From NCBI RefSeq assembly GCF_048403405.1, contig NZ_CP183129.1: a DNA stretch of 64,000 nt; one strand, written 5' to 3'. A program made the position numbers and the translations under genes. This document shows positions 19,121 to 63,040 of the stretch, one piece after another. A model generated the notes under the pieces. The model did no database searches and was not told the DNA's origin. It saw only the letters and a list, made by a program, of their open reading frames with translations. The DNA is from Escherichia coli (GTDB taxonomy: Bacteria > Pseudomonadota > Gammaproteobacteria > Enterobacterales > Enterobacteriaceae). Numbering within the stretch: position 1 is the stretch's first letter; each line of letters opens with the position of its first letter.

Positions 19121-21781
19121 TCATGATTCCTCGCGCTGGGCAAGATTTAGCGTAAGCCCAACGATCCCCTCTTCGAGCTGGATATCAACGTTAAACCCGA
19201 GCTTGCGGGCCAGCGCCACCATGCCACGATTGTTTGGCATCGTAATACCATTCAGACGTTGCAGTCCGTGATCTCGCGTATAGGTAATCAACTTTTCCAT
19301 TAAGCGTCGACCTAAGCCTAACCCTTTGAGATCCGAGCGAACCAGCACGGCAAATTCGGCATCGATGTTATCAGGGTCGGAGATCGCACGCGTGACGCCA
19401 AGGATCTCTTCCGTTTGTTCAATACGTCGTACTGCTACAAACGCCATTTCCCGATCGTAGTCGATCTGCGTCATGTTGGCTAAATCTTCATGGGTAAATT
19501 CGTTGATCTCGCTAAAGTAGCGGTAATAAAGATCTTCTTTGGTGACTCGCGAAATGAATTGCTGAAGTTGTGGCTCATCTTCTGGCAAAATCGGGCGGAA
19601 CAAGCAGCGTTCACCGTTTTTCAATTCTACCCATTCTTCCAGCTGATGCGGATAAGGGCGCACTGCCAGCCGACTCTCGTTATCGCCTTCAAACGGCGCG
19701 ATATCCAGCGTGACATCCAGCGCGGTAAATTCACTGCCAGAAGCCAGCAAAGGATGAATATCCAGACGCTGAATTTCCGGGCAATCGACAATCAAGTTAG
19801 AAACCTGCACCAGAAGCTGGCTCAAGCCTGCAACATCTAATGGGCGTAGCGCACTGCGCGCACGAATCTTTTTACTTTTGATCCCCTGAATAACCAGATA
19901 GCGGGCCAGGTTCATGTTCAGCGGCGGTAGTGCGACGACGGCTTGATCTTCAGGACGCCACTCCACACCGCCTTCGCCCAGCATGATCAACGGCCCGAAA
20001 ACCGGATCGTGCTCAACCACAACCCGCAACTCCTGAGCGCCAGCACGGTTAGCCATACTTTGCACCAACAGGCCGTGGATCCGCGCCTGCGGCCAGGCCA
20101 TTTTTACGCGATCGAAAATAGCGTTTGCCGCTTGCTGGACTTCATTAGCTGTACGCAGGTAGAGCATTACGCCCTGAACTTCCGATTTATGTGGAATATC
20201 CGGCGAACGCAATTTCAGCGCCACCGGATAACCAATCTGTTCGGCAATATGCACCGCTTCGGTGCTATCGCTGGCAATCCAGGTGGGGAGCGTGTTCATG
20301 CCATACGCTTGCAGGATGGGCTGAACTTCATGGGTATCGAGCGACGTAGCCCCTTCGGCAATCGCCTGTTGCAACAGAAGATGTGCTTCTGCGGTATTGG
20401 AGGTCAGATTGCTGGGCAACGCCGGCGTTTCGCGTAGTTGCTTCTGATTACGTCGGTACTCCACCATATGCATAAAAGCAGTGATGGTTCCTTCCGGCGT
20501 GCGATAGGTCGGCAGCCCGGCTTCACTGAATAATCGTCGTGCCTCTTGCGAGGAGTGCTCGCCGCACCAGTTCGTCAGCAGAGAAACATACTTGCTGCGG
20601 GGATGATGCTTTACCGCTTCAATTAATGCTTGCGCACTTTCTGTTGCGGGAGCAGCGGCGCTGGGCGAATGAATAACCATCAGCGCGTCAAAATCCTGGC
20701 TGTGGAGCAGAATATTCAGCGTTTTAATATAGTGCTCACTGCTGGCGTCATCGCGTAGATCGAGCGGGTTAGAGATTGCCACATGTTCTGGCAGTGCATC
20801 GCGCAGTTTCTGGCAGGTTTCTTCGCTTAGCGTTGCCAGCTTGCCATTGCGTGACCATAAGGCATCCAGCGCCAGCGCGGCAGGCGCAGCACCGTTGCTG
20901 ATAATCATCAACCGGTCGCCACGCAGCGGGCGCATATGGCTAAGGGTTTCCACCGCCGAAAACAGCTCGTGGGTGTCCTGTACCCGCAACAAACCGGCAC
21001 GCTGAATAGCCGCATCCCACGCCGGATCCATTCCTGCCGTGGTGTTCAACAGACGTTGAGCCGCCGGGCTACGTCCGCTTTTAATCACCAGAATCGGTTT
21101 ATTGCGCGAGGCACTACGGGCCGCCGAAACAAAGCGTCGCGCGTCGCTTAACTGTTCGAGATAGAGCAGGATGGCGCTGGTTTTACTGTCGCGCGCCAGA
21201 TAGTCGAGCAATTCATCAACGTCGATATCCAGGCTGTCGCCGAGCGCAATAAAGTAAGAAAAGCCCATCTCACGCTGTTGCGCCCAGTCGAGGATGGTGT
21301 TGGAGACAGCAGCCGATTGCGAAATAAACGCCAGCTTGCCGCGTTTAATCGGCACAGGCGAAAAGCTGGCATTCAGACCTTGCCAGGGAGCCAGTAAGCC
21401 CAGACTGTTTGGTCCTAGCAGGCGCATGTTATGGCGCAGGGCGCAGGCGCGGAGCTCTTCGTGTTGCGATGCCGGGGCGGAAAGAATAATGCAGGTTTTA
21501 CAGCCTTTCTCGCCGAGCTCTTCCAGAAGAGCAAGATTACGGCTGGCATTGGTACATAAAACCGCAAGGTCGGGTGTAAAGGGCAAGCTGGCAATATCCG
21601 GCCAGGCCAACACACCCAACACCGCTTTCCAGGCTGGCGTCACCGGGAGTACCGGTCCGTTAAAGCCTCCCGCCAGCAGGTTACGCATCATCAGGTAACC
21701 TGCGCGATTGGGTTTCATCGATGCGCCAATTACCGCAATCGATTTTGGTCGCAGTAGTGCTTCCAGTCCTCGCTGACTCAT
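19121..21781 (-). CDS. patZ: Protein lysine acetyltransferase (NDP-forming acyl-CoA synthetase-like domains plus C-terminal GNAT), 886 aa
   Basis: ORF 19121..21781 minus; translation and length match YfiQ/Pka/PatZ. Confidence 0.92.
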   Translation of the reverse strand: MSQRGLEALLRPKSIAVIGASMKPNRAGYLMMRNLLAGGFNGPVLPVTPAWKAVLGVLAWPDIASLPFTPDLAVLCTNASRNLALLEELGEKGCKTCIILSAPASQHEELRACALRHNMRLLGPNSLGLLAPWQGLNASFSPVPIKRGKLAFISQSAAVSNTILDWAQQREMGFSYFIALGDSLDIDVDELLDYLARDSKTSAILLYLEQLSDARRFVSAARSASRNKPILVIKSGRSPAAQRLLNTTAGMDPAWDAAIQRAGLLRVQDTHELFSAVETLSHMRPLRGDRLMIISNGAAPAALALDALWSRNGKLATLSEETCQKLRDALPEHVAISNPLDLRDDASSEHYIKTLNILLHSQDFDALMVIHSPSAAAPATESAQALIEAVKHHPRSKYVSLLTNWCGEHSSQEARRLFSEAGLPTYRTPEGTITAFMHMVEYRRNQKQLRETPALPSNLTSNTAEAHLLLQQAIAEGATSLDTHEVQPILQAYGMNTLPTWIASDSTEAVHIAEQIGYPVALKLRSPDIPHKSEVQGVMLYLRTANEVQQAANAIFDRVKMAWPQARIHGLLVQSMANRAGAQELRVVVEHDPVFGPLIMLGEGGVEWRPEDQAVVALPPLNMNLARYLVIQGIKSKKIRARSALRPLDVAGLSQLLVQVSNLIVDCPEIQRLDIHPLLASGSEFTALDVTLDIAPFEGDNESRLAVRPYPHQLEEWVELKNGERCLFRPILPEDEPQLQQFISRVTKEDLYYRYFSEINEFTHEDLANMTQIDYDREMAFVAVRRIEQTEEILGVTRAISDPDNIDAEFAVLVRSDLKGLGLGRRLMEKLITYTRDHGLQRLNGITMPNNRGMVALARKLGFNVDIQLEEGIVGLTLNLAQREES

Positions 21782-24290: not shown

Positions 24291-24980
24291 TTACTCACTC
24301 TCTGCCGGTAATACTGGCATCCAGTCAATCGGTTTCTCGCCACGTTGTTCCAGCCACTGATTTGCCAGCACAAAATGGTTGCAGCCAAAGAACCCACGAT
24401 GCGCAGAAAGCGGTGATGGATGCGGCGCTTTCAGTACGTGATGGCGTTGCTTATCAATAATCGCCCCTTTCTTTTGCGCATGTGAGCCCCACAACAAAAA
24501 CACCACGCCTTCGCGGTGCTGGTTAATCAGGCTGATGACTTTATCGGTGAAGGTCTCCCAGCCGAGGCTGGCGTGGGAATGCGCCTGACCTGCGCGAACC
24601 GTCAACACAGTATTGAGTAGCAGAACGCCCTGACGCGCCCAGCTTTCAAGATAACCATGATTAGGGCGGGTGAAACCGGGAATAGTATTTTCCAGCTCTT
24701 TATACATATTCAGCAGTGACGGCGGTGTCGCAATGCCGGGGCGAACGGAAAATGCCAGACCATGCGCCTGTCCCGGTCCGTGATAAGGATCCTGGCCGAG
24801 AATCACCACTTTAACGTCACCCAACTCTGTAAAGCGGAACGCGTTAAAGACATCCTTTTGTGGCGGATAGATAGTGACGCCGGACTGCCGCTCGCTGGCG
24901 ACGGTCTGTAGGGTATTAAGAAAATAGGGTTGTTGCTTCTCTTCAGCCAGCACGTCATGCCAGGTTAATTCGTTTGCCAT
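24291..24980 (-). CDS. ung: Uracil-DNA glycosylase, 229 aa
   Basis: ORF 24291..24980 minus; GQDPYH motif. Confidence 0.95.
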
Positions 24981-25110
24981 CTCGCTCTCCCGCGAATCTT
25001 CAATCCGCCTAGCTTAACTGCTTCTTTCTACAGAACAAAATCATGCTCATTTTTTAGACTTAAACGAGTGCAAAAAAATGTAAATTGGTAAAATTTCACA
25101 CCTGTATAAG

Positions 25111-25124
25111 TTGATGTAAAACAA
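25111..25124 (+). promoter_or_regulatory. Upstream FNR-type site (TTGATgtaaAACAA) in grcA promoter region
   Basis: Near-consensus TTGAT-N4-ATCAA half-sites; centre 53 bp from the downstream site. Confidence 0.6.
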
Positions 25125-25163
25125 TAAAATCCATTTGCGACCATACTTGATGTATGGTTTTTA

Positions 25164-25177
25164 TTGATTTAAATCAA
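25164..25177 (+). promoter_or_regulatory. Consensus FNR/CRP-family site TTGATttaaATCAA upstream of grcA
   Basis: Perfect TTGAT-N4-ATCAA palindrome about 110 bp upstream of the grcA ATG. Confidence 0.7.
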
Positions 25178-25284
25178 AGATTCAAGGGTGTTTGAGGAGT
25201 ATATATACACTCAAGCAACAATGGTTTTACCAATTGGCCGCGACAGGCTGAACAAATCAAATAATTTTGCCGGGGAGGCATCAC

Positions 25285-25668
25285 ATGATTACAGGTATCC
25301 AGATTACTAAAGCCGCTAACGACGATCTGCTGAACTCTTTCTGGCTGCTGGACAGCGAAAAAGGCGAAGCGCGTTGCATCGTTGCGAAAGCAGGTTTTGC
25401 AGAAGACGAAGTGGTTGCAGTAAGCAAACTGGGTGACATTGAGTACCGTGAAGTTCCAGTAGAAGTGAAACCAGAAGTTCGCGTTGAAGGTGGTCAACAC
25501 CTGAACGTAAACGTTCTGCGTCGTGAAACTCTGGAAGATGCAGTTAAGCATCCGGAAAAATATCCGCAGCTGACCATCCGTGTATCCGGTTATGCAGTTC
25601 GCTTTAACTCTCTGACTCCGGAACAGCAGCGCGACGTTATCGCTCGTACCTTTACTGAAAGCCTGTAA
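25285..25668 (+). CDS. grcA: Autonomous glycyl radical cofactor (stress-induced alternate pyruvate formate-lyase subunit), 127 aa
   Basis: ORF track 25267..25668; start moved to ATG 25285 (MITGIQITK); C-terminal RVSGYAV glycyl-radical motif. Confidence 0.92.
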
Positions 25669-25688
25669 GGCTTAAGTAGCAAGTTACT

Positions 25689-25720
25689 AAGCGGAAGAGG
25701 GCGACCTCTTCCGCTTTTTT
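25689..25720. terminator. Bidirectional terminator between grcA and eamB (GCGGAAGAGG-GCGA-CCTCTTCCGC plus T-run)
   Basis: Inverted repeat with T-run read directly. Confidence 0.7.
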
Positions 25721-25722
25721 CA

Positions 25723-26310
25723 TTAATAGAAAATGCGTACCGCGCAATAGACCAGCAGCAGCGTGAGCACGATATTTAACTGGCGACCATACTGGCGAAA
25801 CAATCGCTGAAACAGGTGCCCCGCCAGCGCCCAGCACACATTGCCAAACGTCCCAATCATCGCCAGCAAAACGCTGACGCCAATTATCCAGCTTAGCGCC
25901 TGCGTTTGCGGCAGGACAAACGTCGACAGTGCTGTAATGCCATACAAAATGATTTTGACGTTCACAAACTGCAAAGCAAAGCTGGCCCAAAAACTGATTG
26001 GTTTTGTCTGAAGCCCATCTTCCTTTGTTGGACTGGTAGCGATTTTCCACGCCAGCCAGACAATATATGCCGCCCCCGCCCAACTCAACAGATGCACTGC
26101 TGCCGGGTCGATAACAGCCAGTGAAAACGAAATTCCCGCGCATAGCAACATGACGATTAAAAATCCCAGACTCATCCCTGCCAGCACGCGAGTACTCTGA
26201 CGAAATCCGTGCGTTGTAGCTGAGCTAAGGGCGAGAATATTGTTCGGTCCTGGCGTCATGGCGGTAATCAGGGTGTAAGTCCAAAAAGCACTTAAAAGGG
26301 TCGGTGTCAC
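25723..26310 (-). CDS. eamB: LysE/RhtB-family cysteine / O-acetylserine exporter, 195 aa
   Basis: ORF 25723..26310 minus; hydrophobic multi-pass protein matching YfiK. Confidence 0.88.
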   Translation of the reverse strand: MTPTLLSAFWTYTLITAMTPGPNNILALSSATTHGFRQSTRVLAGMSLGFLIVMLLCAGISFSLAVIDPAAVHLLSWAGAAYIVWLAWKIATSPTKEDGLQTKPISFWASFALQFVNVKIILYGITALSTFVLPQTQALSWIIGVSVLLAMIGTFGNVCWALAGHLFQRLFRQYGRQLNIVLTLLLVYCAVRIFY

Positions 26311-32803: not shown

Positions 32804-33759
32804 TGAAGCAACTTTGGTTTGCCATGTCATTAGTGACAGGTAGCCTGTTATTCTCTGCTAACGCCTCGGCCACTCCCGCGTCCGGGGCGTTATTACAGCA
32901 GATGAACCTGGCCAGTCAGTCACTGAATTACGAGCTGTCATTCATCAGCATCAATAAACAGGGTGTTGAGTCTCTGCGTTATCGACATGCACGCCTCGAT
33001 AACCGTCCTCTTGCACAATTGTTGCAAATGGATGGCCCGCGCCGGGAAGTGGTACAGCGCGGCAATGAAATCAGCTATTTTGAACCGGGACTTGAACCGT
33101 TCACGCTTAATGGCGATTACATTGTTGATTCTCTACCATCGCTCATCTATACCGATTTCAAACGCCTTTCTCCTTACTACGACTTTATCTCCGTCGGGCG
33201 CACGCGTATTGCTGATCGTCTTTGCGAAGTCATTCGTGTGGTTGCCCGAGATGGTACACGCTACAGCTACATCGTGTGGATGGACACCGAATCGAAATTA
33301 CCGATGCGGGTTGATCTCCTTGATCGCGATGGTGAAACGCTGGAACAATTTCGCGTGATTGCTTTTAATGTCAATCAGGATATCAGCAGCAGTATGCAGA
33401 CGTTGGCGAAGGCAAATTTGCCGCCGTTGCTTTCTGTTCCTGTAGGTGAAAAAGCTAAATTCAGCTGGACGCCAACCTGGTTGCCACAGGGTTTTAGCGA
33501 AGTTTCCAGTAGTCGACGTCCGCTACCGACGATGGACAACATGCCTATCGAATCACGTCTCTATTCCGACGGATTATTCAGCTTTTCGGTAAACGTTAAC
33601 CGCGCTACGCCATCGAGCACCGATCAGATGTTGCGCACCGGACGCAGAACCGTCAGTACAAGCGTACGTGATAACGCCGAAATCACCATTGTCGGTGAAC
33701 TGCCGCCGCAAACGGCGAAACGCATTGCCGAGAATATTAAGTTCGGGGCAGCGCAATGA
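32803..33759 (+). CDS. rseB: Sigma-E regulatory protein RseB (periplasmic), 318 aa
   Basis: ORF 32803..33759; signal peptide; start overlaps rseA stop (TAATG). Confidence 0.93.
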   Translation: MKQLWFAMSLVTGSLLFSANASATPASGALLQQMNLASQSLNYELSFISINKQGVESLRYRHARLDNRPLAQLLQMDGPRREVVQRGNEISYFEPGLEPFTLNGDYIVDSLPSLIYTDFKRLSPYYDFISVGRTRIADRLCEVIRVVARDGTRYSYIVWMDTESKLPMRVDLLDRDGETLEQFRVIAFNVNQDISSSMQTLAKANLPPLLSVPVGEKAKFSWTPTWLPQGFSEVSSSRRPLPTMDNMPIESRLYSDGLFSFSVNVNRATPSSTDQMLRTGRRTVSTSVRDNAEITIVGELPPQTAKRIAENIKFGAAQ

Positions 33760-55749: not shown

Positions 55750-55772
55750 TTGATGTATCTCAAATACATCTT
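55750..55772. promoter_or_regulatory. Candidate NsrR operator in hmp promoter (TTGATGTATCTCAAATACATCTT; inverted repeat GATGTAT..ATACATC)
   Basis: Inverted repeat read directly about 30 bp upstream of the hmp start; NsrR repression of hmp is established. Confidence 0.6.
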
Positions 55773-62056: not shown

Positions 62057-63040
62057 ATGCCTAAAAAAATGAGAACAACCCGTAATCTATTATTAATGGC
62101 TACGCTATTAGGTAGCGCTCTATTTGCCAGGGCAGCGGATAAAGAAATGACCATTGGTGCAATATACCTTGATACCCAGGGATATTACGCTGGCGTGCGT
62201 CAGGGCGTTCAGGATGCGGCAAAAGATTCTTCAGTACAGGTACAGTTAATTGAAACTAACGCCCAGGGCGATATTTCGAAAGAAAGTACTTTTGTAGATA
62301 CCCTCGTGGCGCGTAATGTCGATGCCATTATTTTATCGGCAGTATCTGAAAATGGCAGTAGCCGTACCGTTCGTCGCGCCAGTGAAGCGGGTATTCCGGT
62401 GATTTGCTACAACACCTGTATTAATCAAAAGGGTGTCGATAAATATGTCTCGGCATATCTGGTTGGTGACCCGCTGGAATTTGGTAAAAAACTGGGTAAC
62501 GCTGCCGCCGATTATTTTATTGCCAACAAAATTGACCAGCCGAAAATTGCCGTCATCAATTGCGAAGCCTTTGAAGTTTGTGTGCAACGACGTAAAGGGT
62601 TTGAAGAAGTATTAAAAGCCCGCGTTCCCGGCGCGCAAATTGTCGCTAATCAGGAAGGGACTGTTTTAGATAAAGCGATTTCCGTTGGTGAAAAACTAAT
62701 TATCTCCACGTCGGATCTCAACGCCATTATGGGGGAATCGGGCGGTGCGACACTCGGCGCGGTAAAAGCGGTACGTAATCAAAATCAGGCCGGAAAAATT
62801 GCTGTTTTCGGTTCGGATATGACCACTGAAATTGCTCAGGAGCTGGAAAACAATCAGGTGCTGAAAGCGGTGGTGGATATTTCCGGTAAGAAAATGGGCA
62901 ATGCTGTTTTCGCGCAAACTTTGAAGGTTATCAATAAACAAGCCGACGGTGAAAAAGTGATTCAGGTGCCAATCGATCTCTATACCAAAACGGAAGACGG
63001 TAAACAGTGGCTGGCAACGCACGTTGATGGTCTGCCCTAA
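62057..63040 (+). CDS. yphF: ABC transporter periplasmic sugar-binding protein (LacI/RbsB-type fold), 327 aa
   Basis: ORF 62057..63040; signal peptide MPKKMRTTRNLLLMATLLGSALFARA. Confidence 0.88.
   Translation: MPKKMRTTRNLLLMATLLGSALFARAADKEMTIGAIYLDTQGYYAGVRQGVQDAAKDSSVQVQLIETNAQGDISKESTFVDTLVARNVDAIILSAVSENGSSRTVRRASEAGIPVICYNTCINQKGVDKYVSAYLVGDPLEFGKKLGNAAADYFIANKIDQPKIAVINCEAFEVCVQRRKGFEEVLKARVPGAQIVANQEGTVLDKAISVGEKLIISTSDLNAIMGESGGATLGAVKAVRNQNQAGKIAVFGSDMTTEIAQELENNQVLKAVVDISGKKMGNAVFAQTLKVINKQADGEKVIQVPIDLYTKTEDGKQWLATHVDGLP

What the first reader, a model, noticed from the sequence alone, without database searches (positions are those of the whole stretch)
25111..25177. Paired FNR-type sites upstream of grcA
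A perfect TTGAT-N4-ATCAA (25164..25177) and a near-consensus copy (25111..25124) lie with centres 53 bp apart upstream of grcA, consistent with the tandem FNR arrangement described for this oxygen- and acid-responsive gene.
Basis: partly seen in the sequence, partly recalled or inferred. Interest (0 to 1): 0.3.

Follow-up and report, generated by a model that had tools for sequence, protein, structure and literature searches.

The report
Known tandem FNR sites of grcA
The two motifs are real and are the long-studied pair of binding sites for the oxygen sensor FNR in the Escherichia coli grcA (yfiD) promoter, so the finding is correct but already known.

Summary
TTGATTTAAATCAA (25164-25177, perfect) and TTGATGTAAAACAA (25111-25124, one mismatch) lie with centres 53 bp apart in the 304-bp ung-grcA intergenic region of an E. 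coli chromosome. A perfect match is expected 0.05 times per window.

These are the published FNR sites of the yfiD/grcA promoter. The site at -40.5 activates (class II). The weaker site at -93.5 lowers expression when FNR is fully active, so expression peaks under microaerobic conditions.

Published K-12 coordinates map exactly onto the window:
- Both motifs are in the FNR PWM table of Myers 2013.
- The FNR ChIP-seq peak maps to 25149-25151.
- The sigma70 peak maps to 25210.
- The ArcA site (-10/+22) maps to 25201-25232, which puts the start at 25211.

My comparison of 80 GrcA loci adds three points:
- 60 of 65 non-Pasteurellaceae Enterobacterales keep the pair at 52-53 bp.
- The upstream site always has at least one mismatch.
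- A TATA block 29.5 bp downstream of the proximal site centre is invariant.

Within E. coli both sites are invariant, and variation sits in the spacer.

Side observations: a terminator-like hairpin between the sites with compensatory changes, a different site layout in Pasteurellaceae, and the hmp FNR site at 55750-55763.

Novelty: already known. Interest is low.

The parts
25164..25177 (.). Proximal FNR site (FNR I), TTGATTTAAATCAA, perfect consensus, centre 25170.5 = -40.5; class II activating site
   Evidence: Listed in Myers 2013 Table S6 (17.25 bits) at K-12 v2 coordinate 2714579, which maps here. TTGA and TCAA are present in all 55 promoters that were anchored on this site (a selected set, so this is partly circular). 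Invariant in 5 E. coli strains and E. albertii.
25111..25124 (.). Upstream FNR site (FNR II), TTGATGTAAAACAA, one mismatch, centre 25117.5 = -93.5; weaker, down-regulating site
   Evidence: Listed in Myers 2013 Table S6 (TTGTTTTACATCAA, 13.87 bits) at 2714632. The title of Green 1998 names a site at -93.5. Kept 52-53 bp upstream of the proximal site in 60 of 65 non-Pasteurellaceae loci, always with at least 1 mismatch.
25125..25163 (.). 39-bp spacer between the sites; length conserved, sequence poorly conserved (mean 0.58 bits per column)
   Evidence: Intraspecies substitutions cluster here. The FNR ChIP-seq peak centre maps to 25149-25151.
25139..25163 (+). Hairpin (8 pairs, loop TTGAT) followed by a T-run; terminator-like; role unknown and membership of the promoter uncertain
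   Evidence: Pattern scan. RNA fold -10.2 kcal/mol, z = -4.2. Two double substitutions within Escherichia keep the pairing. No Rfam match.
25200..25205 (+). -10 element TATATA (inferred)
   Evidence: TATA at 25200-25203 is invariant in 55 of 55 anchored promoters, and these columns were not used for anchoring. It lies 29.5 bp downstream of the proximal site centre, as expected for class II. There is no -35 consensus (0 sigma70 consensus hits).
25211..25211 (+). Transcription start as used in the literature (transferred, not mapped here)
   Evidence: -40.5 in Myers 2013 Table 1. The ArcA site at -10/+22 equals 25201-25232. A sigma70 ChIP-seq peak maps to 25210.
25201..25232 (-). Published ArcA site with three direct repeats (TGGTAAAACCATTGTTGCTTGAGTGTATATAT)
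   Evidence: Park 2013 supplementary tables. Exact string found at these coordinates.
25219..25235 (.). PdhR-like box CAATGGTTTTACCAATT (2 mismatches to AATTGGT-N3-ACCAATT), at +9 to +25
   Evidence: The only match with at most 2 mismatches in the window. Partly conserved. PdhR repression of yfiD is published. The consensus is from my own memory of Quail and Guest 1995.
25274..25278 (+). Shine-Dalgarno GGAGG, 6 nt before the ATG
   Evidence: Read directly from the sequence.
25285..25668 (+). grcA (yfiD) coding sequence, 127 aa, autonomous glycyl radical cofactor
25689..25716 (+). Intrinsic terminator-like hairpin after grcA (12 pairs, then a T-run)

Best explanation
The two motifs are the FNR operators of the grcA (yfiD) promoter of E. 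coli. Under low oxygen, dimeric [4Fe-4S] FNR binds the perfect site centred at -40.5. That site takes the place of a -35 element, and FNR there recruits RNA polymerase as a class II activator to the TATATA -10 element, with transcription starting at about 25211. The upstream site at -93.5 carries a conserved mismatch and is weaker, so it fills only when active FNR is abundant (full anaerobiosis). FNR bound there lowers the output of the promoter. Expression is therefore highest at intermediate oxygen. ArcA (site 25201-25232, and reported interference with FNR-mediated down-regulation) and the pyruvate-sensing repressor PdhR (box at 25219-25235) add redox and pyruvate inputs. Shown here: the motifs, their improbability by chance, their conservation, the conserved 53-bp spacing (about five helical turns, so both dimers sit on the same face), the conserved imperfection of the upstream site, and the conserved -10 block. 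Taken from the literature: FNR occupancy, the signs of regulation, and the transcription start. Inferred: that the conserved mismatch exists to keep affinity low.
For: Sequence and statistics. Gene identity. Literature: -40.5 activation and FNR ChIP-seq peak; a site at -93.5 that down-regulates (titles and text); a higher microaerobic than anaerobic activity, and stronger anaerobic activity when the upstream site is deleted or mutated; ChIP-chip peak at yfiD/ung; both motifs in the PWM table and a peak in all five FNR datasets; yfiD listed as FNR-activated; ArcA (+), FNR (+/-) and PdhR (-); ArcA acting through disruption of FNR. Coordinate transfer; the K-12 promoter is identical to the window from 25155 to the ATG and at both sites. 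Phylogenetic footprint: 60 of 65 non-Pasteurellaceae loci keep a pair at 52-53 bp (54 at exactly 53), against a chance rate of about 0.002 per locus. The upstream site is never perfect: position 25121 is A in 49 of 55, G in 3 and T in 3, and the three with T have a defective left half. The proximal site is perfect in about half of the loci. TATA at 25200-25203 is 55 of 55.
Against: Nothing in the data contradicts it. Caveats: no experiment was run on this strain. The start at 25211 is a T and is transferred from K-12 literature that probably rests on a single primer-extension result. Myers 2013 Table 1 counts only one FNR site under the peak, although Table S6 lists both. My information-content figures for the site cores are inflated, because loci were anchored by requiring the pair; the flanks and the -10 block are free of this bias. 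Park 2013 record ArcA as negative on yfiD in their own data, against positive in earlier work, so the ArcA role is unsettled.
Confidence: 0.95

Rival explanations
1. The motifs are CRP sites, or shared CRP/FNR sites, so the promoter answers to cAMP rather than to oxygen.
For: CRP and FNR recognise related inverted repeats. Read as a CRP 16-mer, the proximal site has 3 mismatches.
Against: Both discriminating positions are T:A (TTGA/TCAA), not the G:C of GTGA/TCAC. The upstream site has 5 of 10 mismatches to the CRP core. There are 155 positions in the window with 3 mismatches to the CRP core, so that score is background. FNR ChIP and FNR-dependent expression are published.
Confidence: 0.02
2. 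Only the proximal motif is a working FNR operator. The upstream motif is conserved mainly as the target of another protein (ArcA, IHF or a regulator of the divergent ung gene), and its likeness to an FNR site is secondary.
For: Conservation extends beyond the FNR core: AA at 25108-25109 in 54 of 55, the TAAA in the N4 spacer, A25127 in 52 of 55, and the 'wrong' A at 25121 in 49 of 55. Myers 2013 flag IHF ChIP-chip signal at both sites and count one FNR site in Table 1. ArcA is said to act by disrupting FNR at yfiD.
Against: The published work assigns FNR occupancy and an AR1-dependent effect to -93.5 (titles). Removing or mutating the upstream site raises anaerobic activity. The site scores 13.87 bits in the FNR PWM. 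The FNR ChIP peak centre lies between the two sites. The strict 53-bp phasing with the proximal site is what a pair of FNR dimers would need. I found no convincing ArcA repeat or IHF consensus over it by eye, and did not scan for them formally.
Confidence: 0.04
3. Chance occurrence of A+T-rich palindromes in an A+T-rich intergenic region.
For: The region is 36.5% G+C, and TTGAT-like words are commoner there.
Against: Even with the intergenic composition, the expected counts are 0.001 (perfect) and 0.027 (at most 1 mismatch). The pair is conserved across five families of Enterobacterales while the spacer drifts.
Confidence: 0.005

Closest known systems
E. coli K-12 yfiD (grcA) promoter with FNR sites at -40.5 and -93.5 (Green, Baldwin and Richardson 1998; Marshall et al. 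2001; Wyborn et al. 2002)
   Same: It is the same locus. Both 14-mers, the -10 region, the ArcA site, the PdhR-like box and the 5' UTR are identical to K-12, and the coordinates map one to one.
   Different: The window comes from another E. coli lineage. It is 100% identical to strain ST2747 over 801 bp, and only 18 of 5425 records are at least 99% identical over the promoter. It differs from K-12 at three spacer or upstream positions: 25103, 25105 and 25154. The last one makes the hairpin stem perfect.
Simple class II FNR promoters with a single site near -41.5 (for example dmsA, narG, nikA)
   Same: A consensus TTGAT-N4-ATCAA replaces the -35 element. Activation is anaerobic (Table 1 of Myers 2013).
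   Different: grcA has a second, weaker site 53 bp upstream that turns the response into a microaerobic maximum.
ndh promoter, repressed through two upstream FNR sites (Meng, Green and Guest 1997, cited)
   Same: Tandem FNR sites with a negative role for upstream-bound FNR.
   Different: At ndh the net effect of FNR is repression. At grcA the proximal site activates and the distal one only tempers. (This comparison is from my own knowledge of the literature; it was not tested here.)
Tandem CRP promoters in which upstream-bound CRP represses at a distance (Lee and Busby 2012, PMC3445967)
   Same: A second activator dimer bound far upstream lowers output.
   Different: There the effect works through alpha-CTD. 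For yfiD the same paper states that alpha-CTD is not involved.

Membership tests
FNR (CRP/FNR-family) operator | Inverted repeat TTGAT-N4-ATCAA with T:A at the position that separates FNR sites from CRP sites | tested here: met
   0 and 1 mismatches. CRP-core mismatches are 3 and 5.
FNR (CRP/FNR-family) operator | Occupied by FNR in vivo | not testable with these tools
   Literature only: ChIP-chip and ChIP-seq or ChIP-chip in five datasets. The peak maps to 25149-25151.
FNR (CRP/FNR-family) operator | Expression of the adjacent gene depends on fnr | not testable with these tools
   Literature only: yfiD is listed as FNR-activated in three data sources (Table S8), and in Table 1.
Class II activator-dependent promoter | Site centred near -41.5, overlapping the -35 position, with a -10 element about 29-30 bp downstream of the site centre and no good -35 hexamer | tested here: met
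   The invariant TATA starts 29.5 bp from the centre. No sigma70 consensus promoter was found. The published position is -40.5.
Tandem-FNR microaerobic promoter architecture (yfiD type) | A second, weaker FNR site about 53 bp upstream (-93.5) on the same helical face | tested here: met
   53 bp in the window. 52-53 bp in 60 of 65 non-Pasteurellaceae loci. The upstream site is never perfect. PWM scores are 13.87 against 17.25 bits.
Tandem-FNR microaerobic promoter architecture (yfiD type) | Upstream-bound FNR lowers, rather than raises, promoter output | not testable with these tools
   Literature only.
CRP operator | TGTGA-N6-TCACA | tested here: not met
   3 and 5 mismatches. 155 positions in the window score as well as the better one.
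Intrinsic terminator (for the hairpin at 25139-25163) | G+C-containing stem-loop directly followed by a U-run on the transcribed strand | tested here: met
   The stem has only 3 G-C pairs.
Intrinsic terminator (for the hairpin at 25139-25163) | An upstream transcript on the same strand that ends there | tested here: inconclusive
   No promoter-like site on either strand. No 3' end was found in the held supplements of one Term-seq study. Two other papers had no held supplements.

The most novel reading that the evidence does not exclude
The hairpin plus T-run at 25139-25163, which sits between the two FNR sites, keeps its pairing through two double substitutions within Escherichia and recurs as a stem-forming tendency in other Enterobacteriaceae. 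It could be a functional element rather than neutral spacer. Two possibilities are an intrinsic terminator that shields the FNR-dependent promoter from plus-strand transcription coming from the ung side, or a structure or protein site that sets the geometry between the two FNR dimers.
Probability: 0.12. Interest if true: 0.35.

Novelty: already known. Interest (0 to 1): 0.08.

Why it matters
The finding itself adds nothing new. It rediscovers from raw sequence one of the best characterised FNR promoters, the standard example of how two sites of unequal affinity turn an anaerobic activator into a microaerobic switch for the protein that repairs oxygen-damaged pyruvate formate-lyase. It does show that the first-stage reader can recognise real regulatory sites. 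The comparison made here has small extra value. The 53-bp spacing and the imperfection of the upstream site are conserved across Enterobacteriaceae, Erwiniaceae, Pectobacteriaceae, Yersiniaceae and Hafniaceae. This argues that the tempering function, not just anaerobic induction, is under selection. Pasteurellaceae use another layout.

Tried and rejected
- The primary papers could not be read: Green 1998 and Wyborn 2002 and Barnard 2003 are not held. The mechanism therefore rests on how open-access papers cite them.
- Independent transcription-start data: the TSS table of Kim 2012 is truncated and has no entry near grcA.
- 3' end data for the hairpin: nothing in the supplements of Adams 2021, and no supplements are held for two other papers.
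- One literature search on the position numbers returned mostly unrelated papers.
- Rfam scan of 24900-25750: only chance-level matches to microRNA and sRNA families, far below their gathering scores.
- The sigma70 consensus scan found no promoter on either strand. This fits an activator-dependent promoter but leaves the ung promoter unlocated.
- I looked by eye for ArcA direct repeats and an IHF consensus over the upstream FNR site and found nothing convincing. The published ArcA site is downstream, at 25201-25232.
- Assuming the window was colinear with NZ_CP007394.1 over all 64 kb failed. The gene context of the other FNR-like hits was therefore checked directly on the window.
- The CRP reading was rejected. 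The chance reading was rejected.

Full report
**1. What is in the sequence**

Reading 24500-26000 shows TTGATTTAAATCAA at 25164-25177 and TTGATGTAAAACAA at 25111-25124. The first matches TTGAT-N4-ATCAA perfectly. The second has one mismatch (A instead of T at 25121). A search of the whole window with up to one mismatch gives six matches, against 2.3 expected from shuffles. A perfect match is expected only 0.05 times per window. With the A+T-rich composition of the intergenic region itself (36.5% G+C), the expected counts in its 304 bp are 0.001 for a perfect match and 0.027 for a match with at most one mismatch.

**2. Context**

The window is E. coli chromosome. A stretch of 801 bp is 100% identical to strain ST2747, and 5425 of 5426 complete E. 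coli genomes carry the region. The motifs lie between ung (24291-24980, minus strand) and grcA (25285-25668, plus strand). Neighbouring genes are yfiF and trxC on one side and eamB, yfiE and srmB on the other. The downstream protein matches the GrcA equivalog model TIGR04365 at 233.9 bits against a cut-off of 170, and the upstream one is uracil-DNA glycosylase. A strong terminator-like hairpin follows grcA at 25689-25716.

**3. What the literature says**

grcA is the gene formerly called yfiD.
- A 2023 study of oxygen-dependent promoters summarises Green 1998 and Marshall 2001. It reports that mutating or deleting the upstream FNR site gives stronger activity under complete anaerobiosis, and that the wild-type promoter is more active under microaerobic than under fully anaerobic conditions.
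- Myers 2013 list yfiD as directly FNR-activated, with the top-scoring site at -40.5. Their supplementary tables hold both 14-mers (17.25 and 13.87 bits), an FNR peak seen in all five datasets, and a sigma70 peak.
- Grainger 2007 found an FNR ChIP-chip peak at yfiD/ung.
- Trotter 2011 summarise the regulation as ArcA (+), FNR (+/-), PdhR (-).
- Park 2013 attribute ArcA activation of yfiD to disruption of FNR. They list a three-repeat ArcA site at -10/+22.

**4. Transfer of published coordinates**

I fetched the K-12 region and aligned it with the window. K-12 is identical to the window at both sites and from 25155 to the ATG. The K-12 positions of the motifs equal those in Myers Table S6 after the 1978-bp offset between genome versions. 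The offset is from my own knowledge, and the exact match of both site coordinates confirms it. Mapped to the window:
- the FNR ChIP-seq peak falls at 25149-25151, between the two sites;
- the sigma70 peak falls at 25210;
- the ArcA 32-mer is found exactly at 25201-25232.

Since that site is published as -10/+22, the start used in the literature is 25211. I could not obtain independent start-site data.

**5. Independent comparative evidence**

A scan of one genome per species with GrcA returned 80 loci from Enterobacterales and Pasteurellaceae. I searched the 330 bp upstream of each start codon.
- Of 65 non-Pasteurellaceae loci, 60 have a proximal site (at most 1 mismatch) with a second site (at most 2 mismatches) 52 or 53 bp upstream. 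In 54 the spacing is exactly 53 bp. The chance rate is about 0.002 per locus.
- The genera include Escherichia, Citrobacter, Enterobacter, Klebsiella, Kluyvera, Erwinia, Pectobacterium, Dickeya, Brenneria, Yersinia, Serratia, Rahnella, Hafnia and Edwardsiella.
- The exceptions are three Pantoea, Plesiomonas and Mixta. Mixta keeps a 53-bp pair with a weaker proximal site.
- The proximal site is perfect in about half of the loci. The upstream site is never perfect. Its right half is AACAA or AACAT almost everywhere. Position 25121 is A in 49 of 55, and the three sequences with the consensus T there have a defective left half instead.

In an ungapped alignment anchored on the proximal site (55 distinct sequences), the mean information is 1.8-1.9 bits in the two cores and 0.58 bits in the 39-bp spacer. 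The core figures are inflated, because loci were chosen by having the pair. Columns that played no part in the choice are nevertheless conserved: AA at 25108-25109 (54 of 55), the N4 bases, and above all TATA at 25200-25203 (55 of 55). This TATA lies 29.5 bp from the proximal centre, where the -10 element of a class II promoter belongs. No sigma70 consensus promoter is present, as expected when the activator site replaces the -35 element.

Within E. coli the promoter varies between 90% and 100% identity. In five strains plus E. albertii both sites are invariant, and substitutions cluster in the spacer and upstream of the distal site.

**6. How it works**

FNR bound at -40.5 activates as a class II activator. 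The distal site is weaker, so it fills only at high levels of active FNR, and FNR there reduces output. This gives maximal expression at intermediate oxygen. That suits a protein that restores oxygen-damaged pyruvate formate-lyase. The fixed 53-bp spacing (about five helical turns) with a freely drifting spacer sequence implies that the two dimers must sit on the same face of the DNA. This is my inference, and it agrees with the reported need for the AR1-containing face of the upstream FNR (title of Green 1998). The conserved imperfection of the distal site is best read as selection for low affinity. An overlapping site for another protein cannot be excluded.

A PdhR-like box, CAATGGTTTTACCAATT, lies at 25219-25235 (+9 to +25). 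It is the only match with at most two mismatches in the window, and it overlaps the published ArcA site. Repression by PdhR and relief by pyruvate are published.

**7. Rival readings**

- CRP: rejected. Both discriminating positions are T:A. The CRP-core mismatch counts are 3 and 5, and 155 positions in the window score as well as the better one.
- Chance: rejected, as shown in sections 1 and 5.
- The distal motif serves mainly another protein: this keeps a few percent. Conservation extends beyond the FNR core, and Myers flag IHF ChIP-chip signal there. However, the genetics summarised and the strict phasing argue for FNR.

**8. Comparison with what is known, and novelty**

This is not merely similar to the yfiD promoter; it is that promoter. 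Every testable defining feature is met: motif, class II geometry, and a second weaker site at 53 bp. The rest (occupancy, fnr dependence, sign of the distal effect) is covered by published experiments on an identical sequence. Novelty: already known. Interest is low.

**9. Things seen in passing**

(a) Hairpin between the sites. At 25139-25159 there is an 8-pair hairpin with loop TTGAT, followed by a T-run. The terminator scan flags it, and it folds at -10.2 kcal/mol with z = -4.2. Within Escherichia two pairs change on both sides:
- 25144/25154 is T-A in the window, C-G in strains 2009C-4687, NCTC11151, PK13 and L003, and T-G in K-12;
- 25142/25156 is C-G in E. coli and A-T in E. albertii.

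Across the 55 anchored promoters, fixed-register pairing is 0.60, against 0.37-0.44 when the partner is slid. In 15 of 55 the spacer fold has z below -2. Most single changes in the A/C-only left arm are transitions, which give G-U pairs automatically, so the signal is suggestive only. There is no Rfam family, and I found no 3' end data. It stays unexplained.

(b) Pasteurellaceae. These promoters have a conserved extended -10 element (TGaTAAAAT). A strong FNR site is centred 77.5-88.5 bp upstream of it, and often a weaker one 34.5-36.5 bp upstream. The Enterobacterales values are 82.5 and 29.5, so the layout is different.

(c) hmp promoter. The only other intergenic FNR-like match in the window, TTGAGATACATCAA at 55750-55763 on the minus strand, is centred 34.5 bp upstream of the hmp start codon. 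hmp is a published FNR target.

Noticed in passing
window 25139-25163 (+): An 8-pair hairpin (GACCATAC/GTATGGTT, loop TTGAT) followed by a T-run sits between the two FNR sites and looks like an intrinsic terminator. The fold has z = -4.2. Two double (compensatory) substitutions within Escherichia keep the pairing, and there is a weaker stem-forming tendency in other Enterobacteriaceae. No known RNA family matches and no transcript is known to end there.
   Followed up: partly
L043-L073 (Pasteurellaceae loci), 50-140 bp upstream of grcA at locus position 1201: Pasteurellaceae grcA promoters have a conserved extended -10 element (TGaTAAAAT) and a -35-like TTGAA. A consensus FNR site is centred 77.5-88.5 bp upstream of the hexamer, and often a weaker site 34.5-36.5 bp upstream. 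This layout differs from the 82.5/29.5 of Enterobacterales, with the strong and weak sites swapped.
   Followed up: partly
window 55750-55763 (-): TTGAGATACATCAA (1 mismatch to the FNR consensus) is centred 34.5 bp upstream of the hmp start codon (ATG at 55722-55720, protein [11 protein letters not shown]...). hmp is a published FNR-repressed gene. This is the only other intergenic FNR-like match in the window.
   Followed up: partly
window 25064-25090: A moderately conserved block (GCAAAAAAATGTAAATTGGTAAAATTT, invariant within E. coli) lies upstream of the distal FNR site. It contains a perfect PdhR-type half-site, AATTGGT. It could belong to the unlocated ung promoter or be a further regulator site.
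   Followed up: no
window 25108-25127: Conservation around the distal FNR site goes beyond the FNR core: AA at 25108-25109, TAAA in the N4 spacer, the non-consensus A at 25121, and A at 25127. This hints either at selection for a fixed low affinity or at an overlapping site for a second protein.
   Followed up: partly
window 20898-20911, 32941-32954, 62921-62934: Three further matches to the FNR consensus with one mismatch lie inside long ORFs (patZ-like, rseB-like and yphF-like). They are most simply chance matches.
   Followed up: yes
whole window versus NZ_CP007394.1: The window is 100% identical to strain ST2747 over 801 bp around grcA, but it is not colinear with that record over the full 64 kb (a simple base-by-base comparison fails). 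There is at least one insertion or deletion elsewhere, possibly the IS1397 copy annotated near kgtP in that record.
   Followed up: no
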